A stretch of 64,000 bases of DNA. Origin: Eledone cirrhosa (Eukaryota). The notes below the pieces were generated by a model. The model ran no database searches. It was given only the letters and a program-made list of their open reading frames with translations, and was not told where the DNA came from. Location: assembly GCA_964016885.1 (NCBI GenBank), contig OZ024757.1:4402001-4466000 (forward strand), written 5' to 3'. Positions 12,344 to 60,915 of the stretch are shown here, one piece after another. The number at the start of each line of letters is the position of its first letter. Within the stretch, counting starts at the first letter, position 1. Made by a program: the position numbers and the translations under genes.

Positions 12344-12425
12344 ACTTCCCTGATGACGAAAGGCTTCTCCGTACGCTTCTTCGGAAAGTATGTTTATTCC
12401 CTTTCAGAAACTAATTAGTTGGAGT
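12344..12425 (+). ncRNA. Type I hammerhead ribozyme, family A variant
   Basis: ACTTCC-CTGATGA-cGAAAGG..CGTAC(gc)TTC-TTCG-GAA(a)GTATG..CCTTTCa-GAAA-CTAATTA-GTT-GGAGT. Confidence 0.85.
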
Positions 12426-12476
12426 GAAATTTTAGTAAGTAAGTTAATTTTATAATTTTCTTATTTTACGTCTCTC

Positions 12477-13515
12477 ATATATATATATATATATATATAT
12501 ATATATATATACATATATACATATATACATATATATATATATATATACATATATATATATATATATATATATATATATATATATATATATATATATATAT
12601 ATATATATATATATATATATATATATAAATATATATATATATATACATATATATATATATACATATATATATACATTTATATATATACATATATATATAT
12701 ATATATACATATATATATATATATATATATACACTTATATATATACATGTATATATATACATATATATATATACATATATATATATATATATATATATAT
12801 ATATATATACATATATATATACATATATATATATATATACATATATATATACATATATATATACATATATATACATATATATATATATACATATACATAT
12901 ATATACATATAAATAAACATATATATATATATACATATATATATACATATATATATATACATATATATATATATACATATATATACATATATATATATAC
13001 ATATATATATACATTTATATATATACATATATATATATACATATATATATATACATATATATATATATATATATATATATATATATATATATATATATAT
13101 ATATATATATATATATATATATATATACACTTATATATATACATGTATATATATATATATATATATATATATATATATATATATATAGATATACATTTTA
13201 AAGTATATATATTGTATTTTAAAGTGCCCAGGAAAACTATTTCCGTAGAGCTCATTTAATTACAGGATTATACGCAAGTCCTTTGCTCCGTTATTTTTAC
13301 TTGATATATATATATATATATATATATATATATATATATATATATATATATATATATATATATATATATATATATATATATATATATATATATATATATA
13401 TATATATATATATATATATATATATATATATATACATATACAGATATAGATATAGTATGTATATATGTATATATAAATATACATATAAATATACATATAT
13501 ATACATACATATATA
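12477..13515. repeat. (TA)n/(TATAC)n microsatellite tracts, representative of dozens in the window
   Basis: Direct inspection. These tracts are the source of the spurious YI-repeat ORFs. Confidence 0.95.
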
Positions 13516-13519
13516 TATA

Positions 13520-14060
13520 ATAAAAAAGAAAAGTTCGCTCTTCATGGCTGAATACAATAAATGTAATCTGAGCTCTTCGAATATTAATAATAACATTCGA
13601 TTAGTTTGCAATTTTGCAAATAAGCCTCAATTGTATAGCCATGTCAGTAGAATGAACACTTCATTCTTACTCTTGTGTTGGCATGCGAACAGAACTGCAG
13701 ACACTAACGTTTCTGGGTATACACAGTGACTGATTAGCCTGATTTGCATATTAACAGACTGGCTGATCAGTCACTGTGTATTTTTGAAAATAGCATATAT
13801 TTTCACTAGCTCTGATAGTTTGGCAGGTGAACAGTGAGCTGTACTGATGAAGGGTGATACCCAGAAATATTAATGTCTGCAGTTCTTTTCGCATGCTAAC
13901 GCAAGAGCAAGAATGAAGGATTCATTCTACTGACATGGCTATAAAATTGTGGCTTGTTTGCAAAATGCAAACGAATCGAATGTTATTATTAATATTCGAA
14001 AATGTTCTTTTATATATATGAGCGAAATATAGAGCGAAATATAGAGCGAAATGTTCTTTT
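13520..14060. mobile_element. ORF-less fold-back HHR element, family C
   Basis: 13575-13720 is an inverted copy of 13857-14000. Central hairpin at 13720-13780. Second copy at 18367-18720. Confidence 0.75.
13836..13885 (+). ncRNA. Type I hammerhead ribozyme, family C
   Basis: GAGCTGTA-CTGATGA-aGGGTgatACCCa-GAAA-TATTAAT-GTC-TGCAGTTC. Confidence 0.85.
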
Positions 14061-14644
14061 ATATATATATATATATATATATATATATATATATATATAT
14101 ATATATATATATATATACATACACTACCATGACTGAATCTTAACCATCTACTATGTCAGGGTATGTCATGCATCATCTTACTTCATCTGATGAGAACGTA
14201 CTGTTGAAGATAGCTCAGTACCTCTTAAATAGGTATAATAAAATATACTTGATCACACGAATATCTATTTTTGTTAATATTTTGAATTAATATATATATA
14301 CACACATATATATATATACATATATACACACACACACACGTATATATATATACATATATATATATATATATATATATATTCATATATATACATATATATA
14401 TATACATATATATATATATATATATATATATATATATATATATATATATATATATATATATATATATATATATACACATATATATACATATATATACATA
14501 TATACATATATATATACACATATATATATATAACAAGTATATATGTATATATATATATATATACATATATATATACACATATATATATATACACATATAT
14601 ACATATATACACATATATATATATATACATATATATATATATAA

Positions 14645-56912: not shown

Positions 56913-57428
56913 TTCAAAGGAATATAAATTAAAATAAGGAAAGAATGTTACATAATGTAATGTTCCATATATTGGTATTTCACTATGGTGTCCTGGGTGT
57001 ATCAATTTCCTGCCATAATCAACCAGTATTCTTCTGTCAATGCGGCATTGTGTGAGATCTGCCTATGGGTAGCAAGATGGCCGCCACTGGACATATTTAC
57101 CTTACTAATTAGAGGGTGGTTTCAGGGAAAGTAACTCCTCGAGAGATTAGAAATTGTGGGTAGTTTATAGTTAATTGCTAATTTTTTTATTTTTTTATTG
57201 AGAGACGATGTAGGGGAGGTGTCTTATAATTATATAAGTTAGTTATAGCTATTTAACTTATTAGCTACAAGTAAAATTGGGGCTAGATGACCATGTTGGG
57301 TCAAATATCTTTAATTATGTTAATTATTTTCAACTGAACCAGATCAATAATGATATATAGTCATTTGATCTAGAAATATTATATGGAGTAGCGAAATAAT
57401 TGTAAACAGACATTATTATTATTATTAA

Positions 57429-57620
57429 GCGGTGGTGGATTGGCAGTATCAGTAGAGGGTCGGGCGCCATGCTTTCCAGCATAGTTACATCCCTTTACGA
57501 TCTGAGTTCAAATCCCGCCGAGGTTGACTTTGCCTTTCATCCTTACGGGGTCGATAAAATAAAGTACCAGTAATGCACTGGGTAATTGCTGGCCTTGTGC
57601 CTAAAGTAGAAACAATTATT
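57429..57620 (+). mobile_element. tRNA-derived SINE
   Basis: Box A TGGCAGTATCAG and box B GTTCAAATCC. Inserted in an (ATT)n tract. Confidence 0.85.
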
Positions 57621-58104
57621 ATTATTAATATTATTATTAATATTATTATTATTATTCTCTACATTCCTTACATCAAACTAAAATATGTTGACAATCTTTT
57701 AATAATGTCTACCTTGTGAAATTTGTGGTCTTGTTTTGCTTAACTAATGAATATTTCCAGGTCTGCGCGCCTAACTTCTGCATGAACCCATCCACCTAGC
57801 TGCTTTCCACTGCATATTGCACATTGAGCACATGCCTTTACGCTTTGGCTTCTAACTAATTCACCAATCTCTCCTCTCCTATCTCCCCACCTATCTCCAT
57901 CTCTCTCTTTAAGATTGGTTACTCTTAAACTGTATATATATATATATATATATATATATATATATATATATATATATATATATATATATATATATATATA
58001 TATATATATATATATATATATATATATATATATATACATATACATATATATATACATATATACATATATATCTACATATATATATATATATATATATATA
58101 TATA

Positions 58105-60100
58105 AAAATAACAGATTAAAGTTTAAGCAAAGAATCGCTGCTTTCACCCTTAACGGGATCTTCTGAAACTAACAAGTGAAACAATCTGTGAACGCGGAAG
58201 TGAATATTTCAAAAAATGTTGCAACCGGAGGAAGACAGGAAGATGATACTTTGGTTCGTGGAAACGTTCCCTGGCAAAGAACGGGAAAAAACGAAGATAA
58301 TACGTCATTATTTGGAGCGGTGAAAAACCATTACACGCAAAGACAAAACCACGTTAACGGTATAAAAGAAGTCGTAGACTAATATTCTATTAGGTGGTTC
58401 ATAGAGACGTTCTCTGGCAATGAACGAAACAAACGAAGATAATACGTCATATGTGAATCGGGGAGAACAATAGCACGCAAAGACAAAACCACGTAAATGG
58501 TATAACTGAAGTCGTAGACTAAAATTCTAACTAGGAAACCGAATGATTCTCGGCTTCAGAGTTAAGAATAAAGTAAATAAAATACAGAGGTAATCGAAAT
58601 TAAATAAATACATACACGTATCCATATACGTACTTACACAAGCATACGCGAAAACACTCGCCATATAGGTATACAAATACACGCACGTACACAAAAAAAC
58701 CCCGCACGCACATACAGAACCCACGCAACGCCTGTACCCGCACGCATACGAATATATACACCAAATACACATAAAATTATATATAAAAATATATATTAAT
58801 ATATATATATATATATATATGTGTGTGTGCGTGTGTGCGTGTATACATATAATTAAGTAAACGTATATAAATAAATAAATACGTATATAACAAGCGCACA
58901 CACATACTTACATGTAAATACACATATGTTCGGAGACGTACGTCAACCAAAACACGAAATACACATATACACACACCCTACATACGTACGAACCCGCATA
59001 CTCACACAGACGCAAAACTCACGTATACACATAACCAAAAGCATATGTACCAGAATATATAATATATACGCCAAAACACATACAATCAAATATATGTACG
59101 AGGAAGTATACGTACCTTCACAAAATATACAGGTAATATATACTTACCTATGCAAAGAAGTAATGGTATAAACATAACATATACTTAGCTCCCACATCAA
59201 GACGTAAAATATCCGCATACAGTTCATACTATCCGTTAAATATTTGCTCTACGGTTCTTATATATTTGATATATATTTATCCTTATCGAGCCCTCTTTGG
59301 ATTTTAGTCTTCAAATTTATTTTTATTACTATAAACTTACGTAGGAATACAAGTGAAATCATAAACTCGTCATCTACGTAAACCTCTTGTTGAGTCATAC
59401 AACGCCGTGCGCCAAAACTATCCATAAGAAGTATTCACAACCTCTAATTGGATTACCTATAACGATATCTTGTTATCCTCTCTCTCTCTCTCTCTATATA
59501 TATATATATATATATATATATATATATATATTCAAAACAACAAACAGCGGAGGACGCGTTTCGCACCTTTCCGACAGACAACCTTTCCCCCACCCCGGAA
59601 AAACCCCCAGTTGATGGATGTGAATCCAAAATATATAGGGACAATTAAATCTCTCCCAAGGTAACTCTCTCTCGTGTTCTTATTTTTATTTTATCCTTTA
59701 TACTCTTTCCTTCATTCTTCTACACGTCTTATACAGACCACGCATCTCAACGTACACCCATTTACATCTCTCTCTCCACCACCGGATCTTGTTACCCGGA
59801 GATTTACCTATTTGCATTGTCGAGGCTTCCAAACGACTTAAAGATATTTACCTATTATTCCACAATGCTTCAAGAAAACTTCAATACTCTCCTATATATA
59901 TATATATATATATATATATATATATATATATATATATATATAGCAACAATAATAAATTTGAAGACTAAAATCCAAAGAGGGCTCGATAAGGATAAATATA
60001 TATCAAATATATAAGAACCGTAGAGCAAATATTTATTAAAATAACAGATTAAAGTTTAAGCAAACAATCGCTGCTTTCACCCTTAACGGGATCTTCTGAT
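58105..60100 (-). mobile_element. Non-coding 3'-end copies of the family F Naiad
   Basis: 58105-58272 and 59158-59237 match 43110-43360, with about 880 extra bp between them that include a roughly 140-bp-period duplication. HHR at 58120-58170, truncated HHR at 60053-60099. Confidence 0.75.
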
Positions 60101-60130
60101 ATATATATATATATATAGAGAGAGAGAGAG

Positions 60131-60915
60131 ATAATTTAATATATCTACTAACATAAGCGCACAGATGTACGCTAATGCCAGCAAATACACAGGTTATGTC
60201 ATAGTACCTAGGTGGTACAATGCAGGAGAATGCAGAACAATAATATAAAAGACGTAAAATAAGAAAATTTAAAAAAAAAATTTTTTTTTTAAATTAACTT
60301 ACTTACTTAAATTTTCACTCCAACTAATTAGTTTCTGCAATAAAATTTTCTTATTTTACGTCTTTTATATTATTGTTCTGCATTCTCCTGCATTGAACCA
60401 CCTAGGTACTATGACATAACCTGTGTATTTGCTGGCATTAGCGTACATCTGTGCGCTTATGTTAGTAGATATATTAAATTATCTATATTTATCTCCAAAT
60501 CACTGATTTGTCGAGCAAACCTGCCAAAACCACTTCTAAATTTTTTTGGGGGTGTAGTAGGCGCCTGTCATCTTACCATCCCATTCCTACTGACTAGCCT
60601 CTGTGTCACGTGATTGATTCTTCAGAATCAGCCATATGATCAGTGGCAGTGAGAATTTTCGGTAGCTGGAATCCAGTCCTCGATAGCTGTTCCATTTACA
60701 GAATTATTATTATTTTTATATGAGTCCCCAGTGTCCGCGCATCGCCTGGAGACTCGGCTGAGAATGACCTCCCTGATGACGCAATGAAATTCTCAACAGT
60801 TCATTACGTAACTGTCTTTATCCCATTGCAGAAACTAATTAGTTGGAGTGAAAATTTAAGTAAGTTAATTTTTAAAAAAAATTTTTTTTTTAAATTTCTT
60901 ATTTTACGTCTTTTA
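60131..60915. mobile_element. ORF-less HHR element, family A (about 550-nt redundant unit plus inverted partial copy)
   Basis: Same architecture as 11524-12476 and homologous to it. Confidence 0.8.
60769..60848 (+). ncRNA. Type I hammerhead ribozyme, family A
   Basis: CTCC-CTGATGA-cGCAATG..ACAGTT/AACTGT..CATTGCa-GAAA-CTAATTA-GTT-GGAG. Confidence 0.85.

What the first reader, a model, noticed from the sequence alone, without database searches (positions are those of the whole stretch)
12344..60848. Compensatory evolution in family A ribozymes
Seen: copies at 6011 and 60769 have stem II GCAATG/CATTGC with inner hairpin GACAGTT/AACTGTC. Copies at 11702 and 12344 have GAAAGG/CCTTTC with a different inner hairpin closed by UUCG. 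The core, the stem III palindrome ACTAATTAGT and the GUU site are unchanged. Two double substitutions keep stem II paired, which is within-window evidence of selection on the RNA structure.
Basis: seen in the sequence. Interest (0 to 1): 0.75.

Follow-up and report, generated by a model that had tools for sequence, protein, structure and literature searches.

The report
Hammerhead ribozyme stems co-evolving in retrozymes
Four copies of a small non-coding jumping repeat in this window carry a hammerhead-type RNA motif whose paired letters changed together between subfamilies, which shows selection on the RNA fold; self-cutting is predicted but not shown, and this pattern is already published for such elements.

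Summary
The window holds four full type I hammerhead (HHR) motifs (6011-6093 -, 11702-11784 -, 12343-12425 +, 60766-60849 +) and one 5'-truncated remnant (about 60316-60340 -). Two carry stem II GCAAUG/CAUUGC and two carry GAAAGG/CCUUUC. The two GAAAGG copies are arms of a single head-to-head insertion, so the window holds only two independent lineages.

The genome (3.0 Gb) has at least 9,112 copies. In 89 aligned sequences, 97.3% of stem cells pair, against 34-48% in slid controls. One stem II pair shows all four Watson-Crick types with no mismatch. On a tree built from flanks only, 18 double changes kept pairing, and 0 of 2,000 tree-aware simulations reached the observed pairing.

The carrier is a 478-571-nt non-coding repeat with the insertion footprints of Penelope-like elements: partial tandems, inverted 5'-truncated arms, two alternative 3' ends, and (TA)n targets. 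It is therefore a retrozyme-type element.

Rfam hammerhead models miss it. Cleavage and RNA circles are untested here. Covariation within such families was already reported in 2014, so this is a new member of a known kind.

The parts
6011..6093 (-). Hammerhead copy 1, GCAAUG/CAUUGC subfamily. Predicted cut between 6016 and 6015. The element (5946-6096) is 5'-truncated just upstream of stem I and flanked by (TA)n on both sides.
11702..11784 (-). Hammerhead copy 2, GAAAGG/CCUUUC subfamily, with C(UUCG)G inner hairpin. Predicted cut between 11707 and 11706.
12343..12425 (+). Hammerhead copy 3, GAAAGG/CCUUUC subfamily. Predicted cut between 12420 and 12421.
60766..60849 (+). Hammerhead copy 4, GCAAUG/CAUUGC subfamily, identical to 6 other sampled genomic copies. 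Predicted cut between 60844 and 60845.
60316..60340 (-). 5'-truncated remnant holding only the 3' strand of stem II, GAAA, stem III and the 3' strand of stem I. It is the start of the inverted arm of insertion 2.
11529..12478 (.). Insertion 1: head-to-head pair. The minus arm is 11907 down to 11529 (379 nt, 3' end at site B). The plus arm is 11902-12478 (one full unit plus terminal redundancy, 3' end at site A). The arms are 98.8% identical and both outer ends abut (TA)n-type microsatellite.
60136..60918 (.). Insertion 2: head-to-head pair. The minus arm is 60340 down to 60136 (3' end at site B). The plus arm is 60341-60918 (3' end at site A). It is flanked by (TA)n/(GA)n. The inverted arms give the sub-threshold MIR841 hits at 60181-60431.

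Best explanation
The four motifs are type I hammerhead ribozyme sequences carried by a 478-571-nt non-coding repeat that has at least 9,112 copies in this 3.0-Gb genome and was likely spread by the enzymes of Penelope-like retrotransposons (a retrozyme-type element); the ribozyme is predicted to cut after GUU.

Shown here:
- The conserved boxes CUGAUGA and GAAA sit at the junction of three helices.
- Helices I, IIa and IIb keep pairing through many independent double substitutions between subfamilies, while mismatches are mostly confined to single dead copies.
- G.U intermediates are favoured over A.C.
- Stem III is a short palindrome.
- The carrier shows partial tandems, inverted 5'-truncated arms, two alternative 3' ends and insertion into (TA)n.

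Inferred:
- Source elements must fold into the hammerhead to keep spreading, so a change on one side of a stem is only passed on once it is compensated. This produces subfamilies with different but always paired stems.
- Because stem III has only 3-4 base pairs, two copies in a multimeric transcript likely pair through the 10-nt palindrome and cut as a double hammerhead. This would release unit-length RNA that may be circularised by a host ligase and copied back into DNA by a Penelope-like reverse transcriptase that primes on both strands of a cut (TA)n site.
For: Motif and copy number: (9,112 hits, reversed-pattern control 0).

Pairing: one search gives 97.3% of 1,659 cells paired, against 86.3% in column shuffles (0 of 500 reach it) and 34.5-47.8% when slid. 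198 cells changed on both sides, against 63.7 (0 of 500). Pair 20-70 is UA 34, AU 28, CG 16, GC 10. All 5 stem IIb pairs and 2 of 4 stem I pairs have two-sided changes.

Independent prediction of the same junction.

Flank-only tree of 86 copies:
- at pair 20-70 there are 4 changes on the left, 4 on the right and 4 joint.
- 18 same-branch Watson-Crick to Watson-Crick switches, 17 on internal branches, and none to a mismatch. There are 27 changes to G.U and 11 back. There are 24 changes to a mismatch, 18 of them on terminal branches.
- observed pairing 0.969 against null mean 0.784 and maximum 0.880, reached by 0 of 2,000 simulations. 7 pairs have at least 2 Watson-Crick types and at least 90% pairing, against null mean 0.97 and maximum 4.

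Strand: 72 G.U cells against 20 A.C cells.

Unforced conservation:
- UUCUC in the stem II internal loop is the same in 5 subfamily groups.
- The extra A before GAAA is present in 9,112 copies against 39 without it.

Dimer: in 4 of 4 window copies the cofold pairs all 10 palindrome bases between molecules, 8.6-12 kcal/mol better than two monomers.

Carrier:
- Adjacent pairs are -+ 23 against +- 2, and there are 31 same-strand pairs spaced 478-571 nt.
- 3' ends fall at site A (52) or site B (60) of 119 mapped ends. 37 of 38 classifiable head-to-head insertions are A/B.
- 104 of 119 3' ends abut (TA)n.

Literature (passages read): Craig 2021 PMC8557442 for tandem/inverted insertions, the tail and microsatellite bias. 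Frangieh 2024 PMC11167929 for both strands being extended and two reverse-transcription start sites. Cervera and de la Pena 2014 PMC4209133 for the long helix II, the extra base after position 9, the palindromic helix III and motifs close together on opposite strands.
Against: - No Rfam hammerhead model matches these copies, either at gathering scores or at E up to 10 on 131-141-nt stretches.
- Single-copy MFE folds are unconvincing. 2 of 4 copies do not fold into the hammerhead shape, and only one has a z-score below -1.
- Two of the five measures are not above column shuffles: pairs with a two-sided change 9 against 7.6 (54 of 500), and further pair types 22 against 22.4 (405 of 500).
- An extra A between C11.1 and G12 is not a feature I found described.
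- 5' ends of copies do not pile up at the predicted cut. Only 1 of 122 is at position 0, and 17 lie in 0 to +29 against about 7 expected. So there is no genomic footprint of cleavage.
- Published Penelope-type hammerheads cut poorly in vitro (PMC4209133), and cleavage was not needed for insertion in vitro (PMC11167929).
- The one abundant Penelope-like family I found in this genome shares no sequence with the repeat.
- The sample comes only from the first 56 Mb of one contig and was picked by an exact core and stem III, so their constancy is by construction.
Confidence: 0.85

Rival explanations
1. The fold is under selection, but not for self-cleavage. The hammerhead-shaped three-way junction, with its long stem II and fixed UUCUC loop, would serve mainly as a recognition or packaging structure for the retrotransposon's reverse transcriptase, or as a transcript-stabilising structure, and cutting would be weak or dispensable.
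For: - Frangieh 2024 (PMC11167929, passages) reports that hammerhead cleavage was not necessary for insertion in vitro and that no RNA-seq reads ended at the cut site.
- Cervera 2014 (PMC4209133, passages) reports low in vitro activity of Penelope-type hammerheads.
- Here, 5' ends of copies do not pile up at the cut site (1 of 122 at position 0).
- The stem II extension and its conserved internal loop are not needed by a minimal hammerhead.
Against: - The catalytic boxes CUGAUGA and GAAA and the GUU triplet are the same in every subfamily seen, while the stems around them change.
- Core mutants in the sample (CAGAUGA, CUGGUGA, CUGACGA) are mostly single copies or the two arms of one insertion. 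The sample was, however, picked for an intact core.
- The palindromic stem III fits the known double-hammerhead way of cutting (PMC4209133).
Confidence: 0.11
2. The apparent covariation is a by-product of shared ancestry. Subfamily-diagnostic letters happen to be complementary, with no selection on pairing.
For: - All copies belong to a few subfamilies, so cells are not independent.
- Two count-based measures do not exceed column shuffles (54 of 500, 405 of 500).
- Within the window there are only two lineages.
Against: - The tree-aware null gave 0 of 2,000 simulations reaching the observed pairing or the number of multi-type pairs.
- Slid controls pair in only 34.5-47.8% of cells, against 97.3%.
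- There were 18 same-branch double changes to another Watson-Crick pair and 0 to a mismatch.
- One pair shows four Watson-Crick types with 0 of 88 unpaired.
Confidence: 0.02
3. Pairing is selected at the DNA level (a hairpin or cruciform in the repeat) or in the antisense transcript, not in the hammerhead-sense RNA.
For: The stems are inverted repeats in DNA as well, and half of the insertions are head-to-head, so both strands could be transcribed.
Against: - G.U/U.G cells number 72 against 20 for A.C/C.A.
- On the tree, 27 changes went to G.U (12 on internal branches), against about 10 to A.C, only 2 of which are internal.
- G.U in this strand would be a C.A mismatch in DNA or in the antisense RNA.
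- The conserved unpaired boxes are those of the hammerhead in this strand only.
Confidence: 0.02

Closest known systems
Minimal/atypical type I hammerheads of Penelope-like elements (Cervera and de la Pena 2014, PMC4209133; passages read)
   Same: - Type I topology and a longer-than-usual helix II.
- A short helix I (4-6 bp here).
- An extra unpaired base between A9 and 10.1 (C here).
- A conserved G10.1-C11.1 pair (81 of 88 rows).
- A small palindromic helix III suited to dimers.
- Motifs 100-700 bp apart on opposite strands.
[quoted passage not shown]
   Different: - Stem II is much longer: 6 bp, then a 7x7 internal loop with a fixed UUCUC, then a 5-9 bp distal hairpin, about 47 nt in all.
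- There is a fixed extra A between C11.1 and G12, which I did not find mentioned in the passages read (figures are not held).
- The carrier has no ORF.
Metazoan non-LTR retrozymes (Cervera and de la Pena 2020, PMC7229834, abstract and one Results section read; Li, Clavereau and Pollet 2026 preprint 10.64898/2026.07.22.740005, abstract read)
   Same: - A non-coding repeat with one type I hammerhead per unit.
- Tandem copies and thousands of copies per genome.
- Co-existence with autonomous Penelope-like elements.
- A proposed origin as non-autonomous derivatives of such elements.
   Different: - The unit is 478-571 nt, against the reported 170-400 nt.
- Most insertions here are one to three units with an inverted truncated arm rather than long arrays.
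- Circular RNA is not shown here.
Penelope-like element insertion signature (Craig et al. 2021, PMC8557442; Frangieh et al. 2024, PMC11167929; passages read)
   Same: - 5' truncation, partial tandems and an inverted 5'-truncated copy upstream.
- A 'tail' present at one end only, explained by two reverse-transcription start sites and extension of both DNA strands.
- A bias for microsatellites, including (TA)n.
   Different: - The distance between the two 3' ends is about 115-125 nt here, against the reported 30-40 bp.
- No sequence is shared with the one Penelope-like family examined in this genome.
Rfam hammerhead families (clan CL00010: Hammerhead_1, _3, _II, HH9, HH10)
   Same: The core boxes and the three-helix junction.
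   Different: No model scores these copies even at E up to 10. A different, canonical-looking hammerhead at window 32322-32392(-) does hit HH9, at 29.1 bits, which is below the gathering score of 52.

Membership tests
Hammerhead ribozyme (type I) | Conserved core: C3-U4-G5-A6-N7-G8-A9, G12-A13-A14, A15.1-U16.1, and a cleavage triplet NUH. | tested here: met
   CUGAUGA ... GAAA-C...G-U-U is present in all 4 window copies and in 9,112 genomic copies. The triplet is GUU. There is one extra base on each side of stem II: C after A9, and A before G12 (A 9,112 against non-A 39).
Hammerhead ribozyme (type I) | Three helices around the core, with helix I open and helices II and III closed. | tested here: met
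   Helices I, IIa and IIb are supported by two-sided changes. Helix III (3-4 bp, palindrome) never varies, but it was fixed by the search pattern, so it is uninformative.
Hammerhead ribozyme (type I) | Match to a curated covariance model (Rfam clan CL00010). | tested here: not met
   There is no hammerhead hit at gathering score or at E up to 10 on short stretches. The likely cause is the 47-nt stem II and the two extra bases.
Hammerhead ribozyme (type I) | Site-specific self-cleavage. | not testable with these tools
   This needs in vitro transcription or RNA ends from the animal.
Metazoan non-LTR retrozyme | A non-coding unit with a type I hammerhead, repeated head to tail. | tested here: met
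   There are 31 same-strand adjacent pairs spaced 478-571 nt. No ORF with a Pfam match lies inside the unit. The unit is longer than the published 170-400 nt.
Metazoan non-LTR retrozyme | Expressed as unit-length linear and circular RNA. | not testable with these tools
Non-autonomous Penelope-like element | Partial tandem plus an inverted 5'-truncated copy at the 5' side. | tested here: met
   Head-to-head (-+) neighbours number 23 against 2 tail-to-tail. 48 head-to-head junctions were mapped, and both window insertions are of this type.
Non-autonomous Penelope-like element | A 'tail': two alternative 3' ends, one per side of an insertion. | tested here: met
   3' ends cluster at +49 to +91 (52) and +160 to +230 (60) of 119. 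37 of 38 classifiable pairs are A/B, 1 is B/B and 0 are A/A. The tail is about 115-125 nt, longer than the published 30-40 bp.
Non-autonomous Penelope-like element | Sequence shared with the 3' end or pseudo-LTR of an autonomous partner in the same genome. | tested here: not met
   One abundant RT + C-terminal GIY-YIG family was examined. The repeat lies near 3 of 30 of its loci, in no fixed place. The only other matches are AT-rich low-complexity stretches. Other Penelope-like families were not searched.

The most novel reading that the evidence does not exclude
Family A is a distinct structural subclass of hammerhead that every curated model misses. It has a fixed C/A pair of extra bases at the foot of stem II and a 47-nt stem II whose invariant UUCUC internal loop is a functional module of its own, either a tertiary contact or the handle by which a Penelope-like reverse transcriptase picks up this non-coding RNA. 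Its thousands of young A/B-ended, head-to-head insertions are a natural genome-scale record that both strands of a cut (TA)n site prime cDNA on one RNA at two start sites about 120 nt apart.
Probability: 0.25. Interest if true: 0.5.

Novelty: new member of a known kind. Interest (0 to 1): 0.3.

Why it matters
The work confirms, with a tree-aware control, that the stems of a genomic hammerhead family are kept paired by selection on the source elements. This is good indirect evidence that the RNA fold matters for the spread of these repeats. That conclusion was already drawn for Penelope-type hammerheads in 2014, so the gain is modest.

What is added:
- A well-documented, very abundant family with an unusually long stem II that standard RNA-family models miss.
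- A clean set of natural stem II variants (four Watson-Crick types at one pair) ready for swap experiments.
- A large set of insertions whose paired A/B ends match the two-start-site, both-strand priming model proposed from in vitro work on a lizard element.

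Tried and rejected
- Rfam at gathering score on the whole window gave nothing. At E up to 10 it returned only microsatellite-driven miRNA look-alikes, plus one HH9 hit on a different motif. On short stretches around two copies no hammerhead model hit.
- Single-copy MFE folding: only 2 of 4 copies show stem II in the MFE, and z-scores were -3.78, -0.94, +0.35 and -0.81. This is not useful as evidence either way.
Expression, strand, ends and circles are therefore left open.
- Cleavage footprint in DNA: I mapped 122 element 5' ends. They are scattered, with 1 at the cut site and 17 within 0 to +29 against about 7 expected. No clear footprint emerged, and BLAST ends are fuzzy by a few bases.
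- Autonomous partner: ORFs in the window are LINE fragments only. Among 22 ORFs near sampled copies, one weak GIY-YIG hit led to an RT + GIY-YIG element. That family is abundant but unrelated in sequence to the repeat and shows no family A hammerhead in a 16-kb tandem pair.
- A distal extension of stem I (CUGAGA/UUUUAG) was considered by eye. One subfamily changes the 5' side without compensation, so I dropped it.
- The first gap range in the window pattern was too short (0 hits) and was corrected.
- Earlier-findings look-ups by place and by sequence returned nothing.
- A literature search for this family in cephalopods or octopus found no relevant paper. I do not name the organism.

Full report
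**What is in the window**

Reading the named coordinates and scanning with CTGATGA-N(35-65)-AGAAACTAATTAGT gives exactly four hits. No shuffle of 100 produced any hit. The hits are at 6017-6087(-), 11708-11777(-), 12350-12419(+) and 60773-60843(+). A fifth site at 60322-60335(-) keeps only the 3' part of the motif.

Written as RNA, each copy reads as follows:
- stem I 5' strand (GACUCC or GACUUCC)
- CUGAUGA
- an extra C (A in one copy)
- stem II
- an extra A
- GAAA
- C-UAAUUA-G
- U-U
- predicted cut
- GGAGU

This is a type I hammerhead. Stem III has 3-4 bp, and its letters ACUAAUUAGU form a palindrome.

Stem II is GCAAUG/CAUUGC in the 6017 and 60773 copies and GAAAGG/CCUUUC in the 11708 and 12350 copies. 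The inner hairpins differ as described: GACAGUU/AACUGUC in one type, and a C(UUCG)G-capped hairpin in the other.

- Two copies lie on the minus strand.
- The 60773 copy has A, not G, at the base of the inner hairpin.
- The 11708 and 12350 copies are the two arms of one head-to-head insertion and are 98.8% identical.

The window therefore holds two independent lineages, not four.

**Size of the family**

The window is C18:4402001-4466000 of a 3.0-Gb assembly. The same pattern occurs 9,112 times there (4,960 forward, 4,152 reverse), and the reversed-pattern control gave 0. This is a lower bound, because copies with any change in the core or stem III are not counted.

I took the 30 loci the search returned and fetched the other 47 listed places. 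All of them come from the first 56 Mb of contig C1. A looser anchor found 126 sites in these 77 loci:
- 1 was a palindrome artefact.
- 12 are 5'-truncated inside the ribozyme.
- 113 are full length, comprising 85 distinct sequences.

Stem IIa types seen in the sample are GCAAUG/CAUUGC, GUAAGG/CCUUAC, GUAAUG/CAUUAC, GAAAGG/CCUUUC, GGAAUG/CAUUCC and GGGAUG/CAUUCC. The last has a G.U pair.

**Covariation**

MAFFT aligned the 4 window copies with the 85 distinct genomic ones (A2: 89 rows, 96 columns). The alignment was not fitted to any structure. I named a structure with 19 pairs in stems I, IIa, IIb and III. On that structure:
- 97.3% of 1,659 cells form a standard pair. Column shuffles gave 86.3% (0 of 500 reach the observed value), and slid partners gave 34.5-47.8%.
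- 198 cells changed on both sides, against 63.7 in shuffles (0 of 500) and 0-24 when slid.
- Two count measures were not above the shuffles: pairs with a two-sided change, 9 against 7.6 (54 of 500), and further pair types, 22 against 22.4 (405 of 500).

Individual pairs:

| Pair (columns) | Stem | Counts |
|---|---|---|
| 20-70 | IIa | UA 34, AU 28, CG 16, GC 10, none unpaired |
| 23-67 | IIa | GC 50, UA 32, other 6 |
| 7-90 | I | CG 61, UA 13, UG 12 |

All five stem IIb pairs have two-sided changes. Stem III and the core were fixed by the search pattern, so their constancy says nothing. RNAalifold on the same alignment predicts the same three-way junction without my input.

**Allowing for relatedness**

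I built a tree from flanking sequence only, with the ribozyme columns removed. It has 86 copies. 31 of 117 were dropped because they are truncated within about 130 nt upstream.

Parsimony on that tree gave these results:
- at pair 20-70 there are 4 changes on the left, 4 on the right and 4 joint, so every change was concurrent.
- 18 same-branch switches from one Watson-Crick pair to another (7 in IIa, 11 in IIb, 17 on internal branches), and none to a mismatch.
- 27 steps to G.U (12 on internal branches) and 11 back.
- 24 steps to a mismatch, of which 18 are on terminal branches, that is, in single dead copies.

I then ran a null in which each 3' column was re-evolved on the same tree, with its own number of changes placed in proportion to branch length. 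Mean pairing in the null was 0.784 and the maximum 0.880, against 0.969 observed (0 of 2,000). The null gave at most 4 pairs with at least two Watson-Crick types and at least 90% pairing, against 7 observed (0 of 2,000). Tree errors can inflate event counts. By state counting alone, stem IIa needs at least four double substitutions.

**Which strand**

In stems I, IIa and IIb, G.U/U.G cells number 72 and A.C/C.A cells number 20. The cells are related, so this is a description, not a probability. On the tree, steps to G.U outnumber steps to A.C by roughly 27 to 10, and mainly the G.U ones are inherited. This fits selection on the hammerhead-sense RNA. It does not fit selection on DNA or on the antisense strand.

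**Features of the motif**

- The G-C pair at columns 19-71 is kept in 81 of 88 rows. [quoted passage not shown]
- The A between C11.1 and G12 is fixed. It is A in 9,112 copies and another base in 39, and those 39 are scattered over all subfamilies. I did not find this feature in the passages I read. Figures are not held in the library.
- Stem II is long: 6 bp, then a 7x7 internal loop, then a distal hairpin. The loop's 5' strand UUCUC is the same in five subfamily groups, although nothing in the sampling forced it.
- No Rfam hammerhead model recognises the motif.
- Co-folding two copies pairs all 10 palindrome bases between molecules in 4 of 4 window copies, 8.6-12 kcal/mol better than two monomers. 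This is the classical double-hammerhead arrangement. It is a prediction only.

**The carrier**

The unit runs 478-571 nt from predicted cut site to cut site (30 natural units). It has no ORF with a Pfam match. Its features are:
- Neighbouring copies. In 125 copies forming 69 clusters, neighbours are -+ 23 times and +- 2 times. Same-strand neighbours (31) are spaced 478-571 nt.
- 5' ends. The 122 mapped 5' ends are scattered over the unit.
- 3' ends. The 119 mapped 3' ends fall at two sites: A at +49 to +91 after the cut site (52 ends) and B at +160 to +230 (60 ends).
- Head-to-head junctions. Of 48 junctions, 38 have both ends classifiable. 37 of these are A on one side and B on the other, 1 is B/B and none is A/A. 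Both window insertions are A/B.
- Target. 104 of 119 3' ends abut a (TA)n run.

These are the hallmarks described for Penelope-like elements:
- 5' truncation, partial tandems, an inverted truncated copy upstream, a 'tail' at one end only, and microsatellite bias (PMC8557442, passages).
- Extension of both DNA strands from two reverse-transcription start sites (PMC11167929, passages).

The tail here is about 115-125 nt, longer than the published 30-40 bp.

The genome does hold an abundant RT + C-terminal GIY-YIG element. It gave 138 scored matches out of 31,040 first-look candidates, with open frames up to 796 aa. It shares no sequence with the repeat, so the partner that supplies the enzyme is not identified.

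**Verdict**

The thing itself is a retrozyme-type, Penelope-mobilised non-coding repeat with a hammerhead. Covariation among such families within a genome was stated in 2014 (PMC4209133). Self-cleavage, dimer action, circular RNA and the link to a particular Penelope-like family remain inferred.

I rate this a new member of a known kind, with modest interest. The long stem II module, the fixed extra A and the very regular A/B insertion ends are the parts most worth a specialist's look.

Earlier notes of this scan reached similar conclusions for other pieces, said there to be of the same genome. One of those notes prompted the end-mapping test. I treated them as leads only.

Papers:
- PMC4209133, PMC8557442 and PMC11167929: passages found by term.
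- PMC7229834: abstract and section 14.
- 10.64898/2026.07.22.740005: abstract and outline only.
- No supplements were read. Supplementary figures of PMC4209133 may show variants with the extra A.

Noticed in passing
window 32322-32392 (-): A different, canonical-looking hammerhead (CUGAUGA-GUCC-UUAAUA-GGAC-GAAAC). It hits Rfam HH9 at 29.1 bits, below the gathering score of 52 (E 0.0034). The same motif also turned up in L108, beside a Penelope-like ORF.
   Followed up: partly
window about 11279-11316 (+); L089 (-) near 2966: A hammerhead-like core, CUGAAGAG-GUCACAGCC...GGCUGUCAC-CGAAA, with a 9-10 bp stem II containing one mismatch. A similar motif lies beside a Penelope-like ORF in L089. It may be a further ribozyme family.
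   Followed up: no
window 4960-5016 (-): CUGAUGA ... GAAAC with a long, imperfect stem II (UGUCACGACACU / AGUGUCGUCA). It was seen only by regex and was not tested.
   Followed up: no
L078:2930-6545 (-); L109+L110 (C3:92120001-92136000) 7626-10013 (+): An abundant Penelope-like element with RVT_1 followed by a C-terminal GIY-YIG domain. It gave 138 scored matches out of 31,040 first-look candidates, and many copies have an open 796-aa frame. Tandem copies lie about 5.5 kb apart, followed by TA-rich low-complexity sequence.
   Followed up: partly
Loci L001-L077 and window 11529-12478, 60136-60918: In head-to-head insertions of the repeat, one arm ends at site A (about +60 or +78 after the cut site) and the other at site B (about +172 to +201) in 37 of 38 classifiable cases. 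104 of 119 3' ends abut (TA)n. This looks like a long (about 120 nt) version of the Penelope 'tail'.
   Followed up: yes
window 60181-60431; many (TA)n/(CA)n tracts, e.g. 25651-25775, 38239-38397: Sub-threshold Rfam miRNA hits (MIR841 at 88.5 bits against 200; mir-297, mir-466 and others). They are caused by the inverted arms of insertion 2 and by microsatellites, not by miRNA genes.
   Followed up: yes
window 21088-21879 (+), 39930-40727 (+), 29807-30721 (-), 53864-54676 (+): Fragments of LINE-type elements: an AP-endonuclease domain and a reverse transcriptase. No Penelope-like ORF lies in the window.
   Followed up: partly
L103 3107 (+) and 2824 (-): A minimal hammerhead-like motif, CUGAUGA-U-AGCU-AACA-AGCU-U-GAAA-CUAG, present on both strands beside a Penelope-like ORF. 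Like family A, it has one extra base on each side of stem II.
   Followed up: no
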